Shown: positions 2,629 through 32,180 of the stretch, piece by piece | Layout: each line of letters opens with the position of its first letter | How positions within the stretch are numbered: the first letter of the stretch is position 1 | Origin: Polaribacter sp. | Lineage (GTDB): Bacteria > Bacteroidota > Bacteroidia > Flavobacteriales > Flavobacteriaceae | Assembly: GCA_023254055.1 (NCBI GenBank) | Contig: JALQYN010000022.1 | Span: forward strand, 15,263-79,262 | Reading direction: 5' to 3' | Length of the DNA stretch: 64,000 bases | The notes under the pieces: generated by a model | The model's database searches: none | What the model was told of the DNA's origin: nothing | The model's input: the letters and a program-made list of their open reading frames with translations, nothing else | Program-made: the position numbers and the translations under genes

Positions 2629-2740
2629 TTGTCAGTTCGAGTAAAATTGAGAAGTATCAACAATTTTGTATAGAGAACTATTTAGAAGATATCTCGATAC
2701 AAATTTATTTTTCTCAAAATAAATTCACTCGATATGACAA
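2629..2740. repeat. Palindromic miniature (REP/RPE-like) element, GTCAGTTCGAG family
   Basis: Terminal IR TTGTCAGTTCGAGT / ACTCGATATGACAA (2 mismatches); inner IR AATTTTGTATAGAGA / TCTCGATACAAATTT; lies between convergent genes. Confidence 0.8.
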
Positions 2741-30726: not shown

Positions 30727-31662
30727 ATGTTTTTAAAAGAATTCAGAAATCATTTTAATAAAGAATTATTAGGGGTTTTTCCTCAAACAGAAATTGATTC
30801 TTTCTTTTTTTTGTTGATAGAAAAAGAGCTTGGATTGCAACGAATCGATGTTGCTTTAAACAATCAAGTAAGCATTTCTGAAGACACATTTAAACACTTA
30901 TACAATTCATTGACACGTTTAAAAAATCAAGAACCAATTCAGTATATATTAGGAGAGACCGAGTTTTACGGATTACCTTTTAAAGTTACAAAAGACACTT
31001 TAATTCCAAGGCCAGAAACCGAAGAGTTGGTTAGATGGATTTTAGAAGAAGTTACAGAATTACAAAGTTGCAAAGTTGCAAAGTCTTTATCAATTTTAGA
31101 TATCGGAACAGGAACTGGATGTATTCCTATTGCTTTAGCTAAAAATTTACCAAACTCAGACATTACATCAATTGATATTTCATCAAAAGCAATCAAAATT
31201 GCAAAAGAAAATGCTGAATTAAATGATGTTCAAATTAATTTTATTGAGCAAGATATTTTAAGAGCAACCTCGCTAAACGTCATTGCGAATGCAATGAAGC
31301 AATCTCAAAATAGCAATGAGATTGCCACGTCGAAAACTCCTCGCAACGACAAACAGTTTGACATTATCGTTTCCAATCCACCTTATGTTAGAGTATTAGA
31401 AAAAACAGAAATCCAACCAAATGTACTAGAAAACGAGCCGCATATGGCATTATTTGTTGATGATGAAAACCCTTTAGTATTTTATAAAAAAATAGCTGAT
31501 TTAGCTAAAAATCATTTAAATGAAAACGGAATGTTATTCTTTGAAATCAATCAATATTTAGGAAAAGAAACTGTTAAAACACTTGCTAAAAAAGGATTTC
31601 AAACAGAATTAAGAAAAGATATTTTCGGAAACGATAGAATGACAAAATCTACAGTATTATGA
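30727..31662 (+). CDS. prmC: Release factor glutamine methyltransferase carrying an in-frame repeat insertion
   Basis: EPIQYI, LIPRPETEE, LDIGTGTG and SNPPY motifs; extra 24 aa before FDIIVSNPPY. Confidence 0.95.
   Translation: MFLKEFRNHFNKELLGVFPQTEIDSFFFLLIEKELGLQRIDVALNNQVSISEDTFKHLYNSLTRLKNQEPIQYILGETEFYGLPFKVTKDTLIPRPETEELVRWILEEVTELQSCKVAKSLSILDIGTGTGCIPIALAKNLPNSDITSIDISSKAIKIAKENAELNDVQINFIEQDILRATSLNVIANAMKQSQNSNEIATSKTPRNDKQFDIIVSNPPYVRVLEKTEIQPNVLENEPHMALFVDDENPLVFYKKIADLAKNHLNENGMLFFEINQYLGKETVKTLAKKGFQTELRKDIFGNDRMTKSTVL
31048..31084 (+). repeat. Degenerate octamer tandem (AAAGTTGC-like) inside prmC
   Basis: GAAGTTAC AGAATTAC AAAGTTGC AAAGTTGC AAAGT. Confidence 0.6.
31279..31350. 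mobile_element. 72-bp palindromic RPE/REP-like element inserted in frame in prmC
   Basis: GTCATTGCGA ... TCGCAACGAC terminal IR (1 mismatch); inner IR GCAATCTCA / TGAGATTGC; encodes VIANAMKQSQNSNEIATSKTPRND. Confidence 0.85.
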
Positions 31663-32180
31663 TAAAAAAAAATCTACTCCTATTTATACTATTTTCAGTT
31701 TCTTTTGTTGGGTTTACACAAACCAAAAACACTTCTTTCTCAAAAGAAGCATTGCTAAAAGCGGCAAAAGAAATCATAAATTCAACCGGAACATGTGCGT
31801 TAATTACACAAGATAAAAATGGAATTTCTAGAGTTCGAACCATGGATCCATTTCCTCCAGAAGAAAATTTAACTATTTGGTTTGGCACAAACCCAACAAG
31901 CAGAAAAGTGGCACAAATCAAACAAAATAAGTTGGTTACCATTTATTATAGAGACAAAGATGATTCTGGTTACGTAACTATTCACGGCAAAGCAATTTTA
32001 GTTGATAATCAACAAGAAAAAAACAAACATTGGAAAGAAAACTGGAAATCTTTTTATCCAAATAAAAAAGAAAGTTATCTATTGATAAAAGTTATTCCTA
32101 TTTGGTTGGAAATTGTTAGTCCGCCAAGAAATATTGTTGGAAGCGACAAAACTTGGGAACCGCCAACAGCATACTTTTAA
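31659..32180 (+). CDS. Pyridoxamine 5'-phosphate oxidase-like (general stress protein 26) FMN-binding protein, with signal peptide
   Basis: RVRTM, IWFGT...SRKV and YVTIHGKA motifs. Confidence 0.8.
   Translation: MIKKNLLLFILFSVSFVGFTQTKNTSFSKEALLKAAKEIINSTGTCALITQDKNGISRVRTMDPFPPEENLTIWFGTNPTSRKVAQIKQNKLVTIYYRDKDDSGYVTIHGKAILVDNQQEKNKHWKENWKSFYPNKKESYLLIKVIPIWLEIVSPPRNIVGSDKTWEPPTAYF

What the first reader, a model, noticed from the sequence alone, without database searches (positions are those of the whole stretch)
31279..31350. Palindromic miniature element inserted in frame in prmC, adding 24 amino acids
Seen: a 72-bp element with terminal IR GTCATTGCGA/TCGCAACGAC and inner IR GCAATCTCA/TGAGATTGC starts exactly on a codon boundary. 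Removing it gives QDILRATSLN-KQFDIIVSNPPY, which looks like the normal PrmC spacing. AAAC flanks both sides, but a 4-bp duplication would total 76 bp and shift the frame, so it is not a simple target-site duplication. Established: Rickettsia palindromic elements insert in frame in housekeeping genes and create new peptide segments. Inference: the same process operates in a flavobacterium, with the insert tolerated in a loop just before the catalytic NPPY motif.
Basis: partly seen in the sequence, partly recalled or inferred. Interest (0 to 1): 0.72.

Follow-up and report, generated by a model that had tools for sequence, protein, structure and literature searches.

The report
In-frame palindromic repeat inside prmC
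A 72-base hairpin-forming repeat that is scattered through this marine flavobacterial (Polaribacter-like) genome sits in frame inside the essential-type enzyme gene prmC and adds 24 amino acids to a surface loop, a known kind of "selfish DNA read as protein" that turns out to be common in this bacterial family.

Summary
Window 31279-31350 is a 72-bp palindromic element starting on codon 185 of prmC (30727-31662). It adds 24 residues just before NPPY.

It is one copy of a dispersed family: 34 places in this 2.25-Mb genome, matches in 101 of 149 other genomes of the genus and in 42 of 149 other Flavobacteriaceae genera. The closest PrmC orthologues without it differ by exactly 24 residues. AlphaFold puts the insert in a low-confidence loop.

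The behaviour is general. In 267 genomes of the genus, 71 of the 77 best peptide matches lie in long reading frames: PrmC, topoisomerase, PurL, GltX, LeuS and others. All use one orientation and frame. The reverse-orientation control gave 0 of 80.

The prmC copy is old. Three other lineages share it, and it has diverged about as much as its flanks. The same codon position carries other elements in other species.

Intergenic copies hug gene 3' ends. No target duplication and no linked transposase were found.

The closest known class is the CGTC/TGTC-tagged REP dimer (Di Nocera 2013), which includes some Rickettsia RPEs and lists a flavobacterium as host. Verdict: real, first reading supported, a new member of a known kind. 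Translation is inferred, not shown.

The parts
30727..31662 (+). prmC (release-factor N5-glutamine methyltransferase) reading frame, 311 aa, intact
   Evidence: ORF list. TIGR03534 scores 242 bits against a cut-off of 199. Pfam finds MTS and PrmC_N. The fold matches 2b3t_A with TM 0.90.
31279..31350 (+). 72-bp palindromic repeat copy, in frame, encoding residues 185-208 (VIANAMKQSQNSNEIATSKTPRND)
   Evidence: Family model R1 scores it 74.4 bits, E 2.2e-12. It is absent from the nearest orthologues.
31279..31288 (+). left terminal arm GTCATTGCGA; with the preceding C it reads CGTC
   Evidence: The outer tetranucleotide is CGTC or TGTC at 57 of 68 element ends in this genome.
31341..31350 (+). 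right terminal arm TCGCAACGAC (one mismatch to the left arm)
31299..31325 (+). central hairpin: arms GCAATCTCA (31299-31307) and TGAGATTGC (31317-31325), with a 9-nt loop
31280..31297 (+). left-half hairpin TCATTGC/GCAATGA predicted in this copy
   Evidence: Folds. The family-wide half-unit pairing ATTGC..GCAAT covaries.
31275..31278 (+). AAAC flank, repeated at 31351-31354; not a target duplication
   Evidence: The net insert is exactly 72 bp. All filled prmC genes have (T/C)TA AA(C/T) before GTC. Unexplained.
31375..31386 (+). NPPY catalytic motif codons, 8 codons after the insert

Best explanation
The 72 bp are a copy of a dispersed, non-coding palindromic repeat family of Flavobacteriaceae. 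The family is built as two inverted half-units, each a small hairpin module that starts with (C/T)GTC-ATTGC. In architecture it is a head-to-head REP dimer. The copy landed in, or was copied into, the prmC coding sequence, and it survives there for three reasons. (i) Its length is a multiple of three. (ii) It lies in the one orientation and frame that has no stop codon and reads as a hydrophilic peptide (VIAN-x-x-KQS-xxxx-EITSSQTPRND). (iii) The site is a surface loop between the strand after the D-I-L motif and the strand that carries NPPY. The enzyme is therefore most likely made with 24 extra residues and still works. The insertion is not recent: three other species-level lineages share it. 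Outside genes the same elements sit directly after gene 3' ends, where they could act as RNA or DNA hairpins or simply do no harm. Shown here: family membership, the gap in orthologues, the frame and orientation filter, the loop position in a model, and persistence in many public samples. Inferred: translation, retained enzyme activity, and how copies spread. No target duplication and no linked transposase were found. Chimeric elements, and different families at the same site, fit copy-to-copy conversion as well as they fit repeated insertion.
For: Family. The two terminal decamers occur 14 and 10 times in the genome against about 1 expected each. Model R1 finds 34 distinct places in the own genome (61 strand matches). 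It also matches 101 of 149 other genomes of the genus and 42 of 149 other genera of the family.

Gap. The three nearest orthologues without the insert (73, 71 and 66% identity) lack exactly 24 residues. E. coli PrmC aligns to query residues 29-176 and 209-306.

Filter. The peptide profile found 77 matches at E<=1e-5 in 267 genomes, and 71 of them lie in frames of 271 aa or more. The reverse-orientation profile found 80 matches at E<=1e-5, and none lies in a frame above 108 aa. Of 59 distinct genic copies held, 54 are 72 nt, 2 are 69 nt and 3 are 66 nt. Intergenic copies range from 61 to 103 nt and show no orientation bias, 13 against 12 by my tally.

Hosts. PrmC, topoisomerase (three sites), PurL, GltX, LeuS, a TPP enzyme, a HemN-like radical SAM protein and restriction-modification subunits, mostly at domain borders. 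In this genome there are also a copy in topoisomerase III and a half copy in a 971-aa oxidase, both in the same frame.

Loop. The AF2 model has mean pLDDT 89.9. Block pLDDT is 77, 56 and 63 for residues 181-210, which lie between strands 171-174 and 211-216.

Age. Identity to L069, L077 and L105 is 0.81-0.99 in the insert and 0.77-0.96 in the flanks, and the loops are alike at 0.67-1.00.

Not an artefact. Sixteen DNA runs from 8 studies hold all sampled words. One contig of an RNA library bridges 31138-31519 without a gap.
Against: There is no protein or ribosome evidence. An RNA-library contig can derive from DNA, and it came from a 94%-identical strain. Activity of the enlarged enzyme is untested. 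Every filled prmC has Asn (AAC/AAT) in front of the insert, where empty genes have Pro or Ser, and a varied residue after it. A plain 72-bp insertion does not explain this. The quick PrmC tree scatters filled and empty genes and is poorly resolved, with 22 of 49 inner branches left open, so gains and losses cannot be counted. At topoisomerase site C the arms are more alike (0.92) than the flanking coding DNA (0.52 and 0.67) across 13 species. That hints at a constraint or homogenisation beyond mere tolerance.
Confidence: 0.85

Rival explanations
1. The in-gene copies are not merely tolerated. They are kept by selection on the nucleic-acid structure or on the peptide. Examples would be a hairpin that slows transcription or translation at domain borders, or a domesticated flexible linker. 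Alternatively, they are continually re-homogenised by gene conversion from other copies.
For: At topoisomerase site C in 13 species the arms are 0.92 identical, against 0.52 upstream, 0.67 downstream (median 0.79) and 0.64 for the loop. In 53 scored genic copies the right-half pair is A-T in 42, G-C in 8 and mismatched in 3. The CGT/CGC change involved is synonymous. Half-unit pairing covaries in intergenic copies: 96% paired, 16 double-change cells, 0 of 500 shuffles reach the observed score. The long hairpin does not covary. PurL carries the element at one position in Polaribacter and in 4 other genera. Inserts sit at domain borders.
Against: The same pattern arises if different family members, each internally paired, inserted repeatedly at permissive sites. 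In prmC the shared insert diverges like its flanks. It also decays in some lineages: L099 has an internal 21-nt deletion, L116 has eroded arms, and other lineages carry short relic-like segments. Copies are related, so the counts overstate independence.
Confidence: 0.2
2. The recurrence at the prmC codon reflects one ancient insertion followed by in-place turnover, that is, conversion by other repeat copies and decay. It does not reflect independent hits on a hot spot.
For: All filled genes share the Asn codon before the element. G020 carries a chimera, with the left half from this family and the right half from another. G001 carries a sister family at the same codon. Two intergenic sites likewise hold different families in different species. 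Half-units mix as modules.
Against: Against L092 and L093 the arms are 0.85-0.90 identical but the loops only 0.33-0.42, with flanks at 0.67-0.73. Empty genes with the outgroup-like L(P/S)QQFD are interleaved with filled ones on the PrmC tree, although that tree is weak. G117 has two tandem copies.
Confidence: 0.35
3. The insert disables prmC or is not part of the protein: a pseudogene, or a segment removed from the RNA or the protein.
For: None direct. The hairpin is stable (-22.3 kcal/mol as RNA) and lies 8 codons before the catalytic motif.
Against: The frame is intact over 311 codons with all motifs. The insert stays in frame in lineages whose flanks have diverged to 77-83% identity. An RNA-library contig runs through it without a gap. 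Only one prmC match exists in the genome. No intein or intron features are present in 72 nt.
Confidence: 0.04
4. Chance palindrome in an ancestral lineage-specific loop, or an assembly artefact.
For: The loop is variable in length among relatives.
Against: There are 34 family places in the genome, and shuffles never reach the observed fold or motif count. Sixteen DNA runs from 8 studies carry the identical sequence. A related genome carries the same insert (L069).
Confidence: 0.01

Closest known systems
CGTC-tagged REP dimers (Di Nocera, De Gregorio and Rocco 2013, BMC Genomics 14:522, PMC3733652; passages and supplementary tables read, figures not held)
   Same: The outer tag is CGTC, often TGTC, and the stem starts with AT. 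Two inverted units form one larger palindrome. Copies lie within about 20 bp of gene 3' ends, between unidirectional or convergent genes. There is no dedicated transposase, and tyrosine-transposase genes are not flanked by the repeats. Intragenic dimers encode 20-30 aa in unrelated, often DNA-metabolism, proteins. Their CGTC-3 dimers read VIAGLDPAI...DARVKPAHD, the same GTC-ATT-GC frame and ...xxD end as VIAN..KQS...TPRND here. The paper lists Bacteroidetes, with Gramella forsetii KT0803, among CGTC hosts.
   Different: Their units have 8-9 bp stems and 4-5 nt loops. Here only a 5-bp stem covaries, across 9-19 nt. I could not see their consensus figure, so identity with the Gramella family is untested. 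Their table of intragenic REPs has no flavobacterial entry. They do not report the single-frame rule, the spread over a whole bacterial family, or the re-use of one codon position by several families.
Rickettsia palindromic elements (RPE; Ogata et al. 2000 and 2002, as summarised in PMC10969869 and PMC2229807; passages read)
   Same: Palindromic repeats found both between genes and in frame inside many unrelated housekeeping genes. They encode a conserved peptide, with target duplication uncertain and the transposase unknown. Copies decay in some lineages.
   Different: RPEs are 105-150 bp, occur in obligate intracellular alphaproteobacteria, and are unrelated in sequence. This element is 72 bp and sits in free-living marine Bacteroidota. 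For RPEs, translation and enzyme activity were shown for one host protein (gmk); nothing of that kind exists here.
REPIN/RAYT systems and IS200/IS605-type hairpin-end elements
   Same: Inverted pairs of small hairpin units, with no target duplication.
   Different: Y1 transposase (PF01797) was not found in this genome. It does not co-occur with the repeat across the genus. It is not flanked by the repeat at the 12 loci examined.
Classical MITEs (Correia, ERIC, RUP; PMC2229807)
   Same: Small, non-autonomous, with terminal inverted repeats; sometimes fused in frame to genes.
   Different: Those make target duplications and often have TA ends. Here one empty-versus-filled comparison shows 84 extra nt, with no duplication, around a 66-nt core.

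Membership tests
PrmC / HemK release-factor glutamine methyltransferase (host gene) | Match to the equivalog model above its cut-off; NPPY motif; PrmC fold | tested here: met
   TIGR03534 scores 242.1 bits against a cut-off of 199.1. NPPY is at residues 217-220. The best fold match is 2b3t_A, TM 0.90.
CGTC-tagged REP (Di Nocera 2013) | Tetranucleotide CGTC (or TGTC) at the outer end of the unit | tested here: met
   Of 68 ends from 34 copies, 35 read TGTC and 22 read CGTC. The genome-wide base before GTC is T 0.42 and C 0.16.
CGTC-tagged REP (Di Nocera 2013) | Stem of 8-9 bp starting with A-T pairs, loop of 4-5 nt, short tail | tested here: inconclusive
   The stem starts AT (ATTGC/GCAAT), but only 5 pairs covary and they span 19 alignment columns. 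This copy folds as a 7-bp stem with a 4-nt loop. Their consensus figure could not be read.
CGTC-tagged REP (Di Nocera 2013) | Units mostly paired head to head into dimers | tested here: met
   Twenty full copies align as two inverted halves. Single halves also occur.
CGTC-tagged REP (Di Nocera 2013) | Location just downstream of coding regions | tested here: met
   Of 31 non-genic copies, 25 lie within 41 nt or less of the 3' end of a mechanical ORF of 100 aa or more.
CGTC-tagged REP (Di Nocera 2013) | No associated transposase gene | tested here: met
   for Y1 transposase only. Other transposase classes were not examined.
Rickettsia palindromic elements (RPE) | Sequence relationship to an RPE family | not tested
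   No RPE sequence was compared. Rfam has no matching family.
Rickettsia palindromic elements (RPE) | In-frame insertion in many unrelated conserved genes, encoding a conserved peptide | tested here: met
Rickettsia palindromic elements (RPE) | Insert-bearing protein is made and active | not testable with these tools
   The only evidence is an RNA-library contig across the insert.
MITE | Target-site duplication and an IS with matching terminal repeats | tested here: not met
   The net gain in prmC is exactly 72 bp. One intergenic empty site shows no duplication. No parent IS was sought beyond Y1 transposase.

The most novel reading that the evidence does not exclude
The in-gene copies are live structured elements, not decaying relics. 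Their two half-hairpins are preserved inside coding sequence through synonymous compensatory changes and across genera, for example at one PurL position in five genera and at one topoisomerase linker in 13 species. The same codon positions are re-used by several repeat families. This would mean either a site-specific, hairpin-guided insertion or conversion mechanism that lacks any known transposase, or selection for a nucleic-acid hairpin at protein domain borders.
Probability: 0.2. Interest if true: 0.8.

Novelty: new member of a known kind. Interest (0 to 1): 0.5.

Why it matters
Palindromic repeats read as protein are usually presented as a peculiarity of Rickettsia and a few other bacteria. 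Here the same behaviour runs through a large family of free-living, ecologically important marine bacteria. It affects release-factor methylation, tRNA charging, purine synthesis and DNA topology enzymes, under a clean rule: one frame, one orientation, a length divisible by three, and loops or domain borders as sites. That offers a large natural data set on where proteins tolerate 24-residue insertions. It is also a warning for gene annotation and for alignment-based phylogeny in Flavobacteriaceae. Finally, it is a tractable case for asking how transposase-less REP-type repeats spread, because cultivable Polaribacter strains carry the inserts.

Tried and rejected
Rfam. No family matched at gathering score over the window (only a tRNA). 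None matched at E<=10 over 31200-31430 beyond two noise hits.

Y1/RAYT transposase as mobiliser. PF01797 gave 0 matches in this 85.5%-complete genome. It is present in 123 of 267 genomes of the genus but is uncoupled from the repeat. G149, G099 and G173 are 99% complete and repeat-rich yet have no match. G017 and G078 have 8 and 4 matches but no repeat. At 12 transposase loci only one weak R1 hit appeared, at E 0.62.

Phage carriage. There was no blastn match of the 72-mer in 50,697 phage records.

Long single hairpin as the conserved structure. It is 84.5% paired, and its covariation falls below all 500 shuffles, so I rejected it in favour of half-unit pairing.

Target duplication. AAAC x2 would give 76 bp, and no duplication is seen at one intergenic empty site.

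Empty prmC allele in sequencing runs. None appeared among the contigs of the four runs laid. Contigs drop rare variants, so this says little.

PrmC tree to count gains. It is too weakly resolved.

Literature. Searches found no paper on in-frame palindromic elements in Flavobacteriaceae or Polaribacter. The large MITE census PMC11602168 mentions Flavobacterium MITE counts, but 'in-frame' and 'coding region' do not occur in its main text, and its supplement could not be read. PMC186582 (Ogata 2002) is not held.

Earlier notes of this scan for this genome: none.

Full report
**What is there.**
Window 30727-31662 (+) is an intact 311-codon frame. It matches the PrmC equivalog model TIGR03534 at 242 bits against a cut-off of 199. 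Its predicted structure (mean pLDDT 89.9) is most like E. coli PrmC in complex with RF1 (2b3t_A, TM 0.90).

- The terminal arms GTCATTGCGA and TCGCAACGAC are complementary at 9 of 10 positions.
- The inner arms at 31299-31307 and 31317-31325 are complementary at 9 of 9.
- The stretch begins on codon 185.
- AAAC flanks it on both sides.

The terminal decamer pattern occurs only at the two ends of the element in 64 kb, against 0.04 expected. The stretch folds far better than shuffles, as DNA (z -4.1) and as RNA (-22.3 kcal/mol, z -4.15).

**It is one copy of a repeat family.**
The window holds no second copy, but the 2.25-Mb genome does (99 contigs, 85.5% complete).
- The two decamers occur 14 and 10 times, against about 1 expected each.
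- I aligned 20 full copies and built a covariance model from them (R1).
- R1 finds 61 strand matches, which I count as 34 distinct places.
- It matches 42 of 149 other genera of the family, one genome each.

Record titles of the nearest PrmC relatives name Polaribacter. Rfam has nothing like the element.

**The orthologue test.**
I examined 29 relatives first. The three nearest without the insert (73, 71 and 66% identity) lack exactly residues 185-208. At DNA level, removing 72 bp restores their length. This also rules out a 4-bp duplication of AAAC. E. coli PrmC aligns to query residues 29-176 and 209-306. In the model the insert is a short helix plus coil. Block pLDDT is 77, 56 and 63 for residues 181-210, between strands 171-174 and 211-216. 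NPPY follows at 217-220.

**The behaviour is general and follows a rule.**
A second 72-bp copy sits in frame in a 796-aa topoisomerase III-like gene of this genome and reads VIASKTKQSVNQNMITSSNTPRNN. That is the same frame and orientation as in prmC. A half copy sits in a 971-aa FAD/Fe-S oxidase, again in that frame.

I searched a profile of the two peptides in six frames over 267 genomes of the genus.
- Forward profile: 77 matches at E<=1e-5, of which 71 lie in open frames of 271 aa or more (my count of the table).
- Reverse-orientation control: 80 matches at E<=1e-5. They are essentially the antisense of the same places, and none lies in a frame longer than 108 aa.

The forward profile was built from genic copies, so it favours them. 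The control shows that genes do not carry the other orientation.

Of 59 distinct genic copies that I hold, 54 are 72 nt, 2 are 69 nt and 3 are 66 nt. Intergenic copies in this genome range from 61 to 103 nt.

Host genes identified by Pfam:
- PrmC;
- a type IA topoisomerase, with three separate sites and up to three copies in one gene;
- PurL, between the AIRS_C and GATase domains;
- GltX, between the catalytic and anticodon-binding domains;
- LeuS, at the edge of the editing domain;
- a TPP enzyme, between its N-terminal and middle domains;
- a HemN-like radical SAM protein;
- two restriction-modification proteins.

Outside the genus, 28 of 33 matches at E<=0.001 lie in frames of 395 aa or more, in 20 genera. 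PurL carries the element at the same position in four other genera that I inspected.

**Intergenic copies.**
Of the 31 non-genic places, 25 lie within 41 nt or less of the 3' end of a mechanical ORF of 100 aa or more. Their orientation relative to that ORF is 13 same against 12 opposite by my tally.

**History of the prmC copy.**
The same insert, with the same loop, is present in L069/L098, L077/L104 and L105. Its identity to ours is 0.81-0.99, against 0.77-0.96 for the flanks, and the loops are 0.67-1.00 alike. This points to one old insertion that has been inherited.

Other species differ at the same codon.
- L092 and L093 have family copies whose arms resemble ours (0.85-0.90), while their loops do not (0.33-0.42).
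- G117 has two tandem copies.
- L099 has an internally deleted copy.
- L116 has an eroded copy.
- G020 has a chimera of this family with another.
- G001 has a sister family.
- Nine loci have short segments that may be relics.

The quick PrmC tree interleaves filled and empty genes but is weak. So the site is either a hot spot or the seat of in-place turnover, and I cannot decide between these.

One oddity remains. Every filled gene has an Asn codon before the element, where empty genes have Pro or Ser.

**Structure of the element.**
Across 20 copies the long hairpin is 84.5% paired, and its covariation is lower than in every shuffle. The two half-unit stems (ATTGC..GCAAT within each half) are 96% paired, with G-C, A-U and C-G alternatives. 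They show 16 double-change cells, and 0 of 500 shuffles reach the observed score. These copies are related, so this is suggestive only.

In genic copies the right-half pair is A-T in 42, G-C in 8 and mismatched in 3 of the 53 scored. The CGT/CGC change involved is synonymous. At topoisomerase site C the arms are 0.92 identical across 13 species, against 0.52 and 0.67 for the flanks. Either different internally paired copies keep arriving, or something preserves or homogenises the hairpins.

**How it moves is open.**
There is no target duplication in prmC. At one intergenic site the element is filled in G000 and G254 and empty in G033 and G024. There the extra DNA is 84 nt around a 66-nt core, without duplication. 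Two other intergenic sites hold this family in some species and a sister family in others.

Y1 transposase does not look like the mobiliser.
- It was not found in this genome.
- It is uncoupled from the repeat across the genus.
- It is not flanked by the repeat at 12 loci.

No phage record carries the 72-mer.

**Is it real DNA, and is it expressed?**
Sixteen DNA runs from 8 studies hold all sampled words of 30900-31700. Among contigs of metatranscriptome libraries, one bridges 31138-31519 without a gap at 94% identity. Another covers 31125-31340. Such libraries can contain DNA, so this fits retention in the mRNA but does not prove it. No empty allele was seen in the four runs laid.

**Comparison with what is known.**
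Reviews describe RPEs as the extreme case of in-frame palindromic repeats. They mention Wolbachia, Neisseria, enterobacteria and Yersinia as further cases (PMC10969869; PMC2229807; passages read).

I read passages and supplementary tables of that paper, PMC3733652. It defines CGTC-tagged REPs as follows.
- The tag is often TGTC, and stems start with AT.
- Units are mostly head-to-head dimers.
- Copies lie within about 20 bp of gene 3' ends.
- There is no dedicated transposase.
- Intragenic dimers encode 20-30 aa.
- R. conorii RPE-4 and RPE-6 belong to the class.
- Gramella forsetii is listed among the hosts.

Their CGTC-3 dimers read VIAGLDPAI...DARVKPAHD, the same GTC-ATT-GC frame as here. 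In this genome 57 of 68 element ends read TGTC or CGTC.

I therefore file the element as an AT-rich member of that superfamily, with two reservations. Its covarying stem is shorter than theirs. I also could not see their consensus figure.

My searches found no paper describing in-frame copies in Flavobacteriaceae. The supplement of the MITE census PMC11602168 could not be read and may list the family.

**Verdict.**
It is a genuine, old, in-frame copy of a REP-dimer-type palindromic repeat in prmC. It is part of a family-wide pattern with a strict frame and orientation filter. In kind it is known; for this bacterial family it appears undescribed in the library I searched. Translation and retained enzyme activity are inferred.

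Noticed in passing
window 31055-31085: A second variable loop of PrmC (ELQSCKVAKS) is encoded by a tandem CAAAGTTG-type repeat. In relatives this loop varies from 0 to about 20 extra residues (for example LKLKIQSCTSTKNENN and GSWKFEAGSEMLEVGNDK), so it may be another repeat-insertion spot.
   Followed up: no
window 2631-2738: Copy of a sister palindromic family (TGTCAGTTCGAGT...TATAGAGAAC...TCTCGATACA...ACTCGATATGACA, 108 nt). About ten copies are seen elsewhere in the genome. The same family fills the prmC site in G001.
   Followed up: partly
G000:C91:21919-21990 (- strand; outside the window): Second in-frame 72-bp copy of the family, between zinc-ribbon repeats of a 796-aa topoisomerase III-like gene. 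In other species the same gene holds up to three copies at three sites.
   Followed up: yes
G000:C23:43562-43615 (outside the window): Half copy (left arm only) in frame in a 971-aa FAD/Fe-S oxidase-like frame; it reads VIANTVKQSQKK.
   Followed up: partly
L211 5300-5430 (G000:C82:7100-7229): A family copy lies between a sequence that looks like a TPP riboswitch (name recalled, not tested) and its downstream gene. G033 has the sister family at the same spot. G024 has a further small hairpin nested inside the element.
   Followed up: partly
G000:C44:4016-4118, C55:6058-6142, C59:17663-17752, C62:7085-7173: A hairpin of about 20 nt (CCTGCC.GTCGGCAGACAGG type) is nested at the same position in the arm of four family copies. 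G254 lacks it at the C59 site. This suggests an even smaller element, or a subfamily variant.
   Followed up: no
L210 2650-2780 and 4170-4300 (G000:C20): Other short intergenic hairpin repeats (AAGAC...GTCTT type) occupy spacers where the close relative G254 has 400-800 nt of different sequence. Intergenic spacers turn over fast in this lineage.
   Followed up: no
all filled prmC genes: The codon before the element is always AAC or AAT (Asn), and one copy (L092) ends ...AAT GAC GTT. This makes an 78-nt palindrome, AAYGTCATT...AATGACGTT. In the own genome, 8 of 34 copies have AAC on the left and 5 of 34 have GTT on the right. Whether these three bases belong to the element or to a target is unexplained.
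   Followed up: partly
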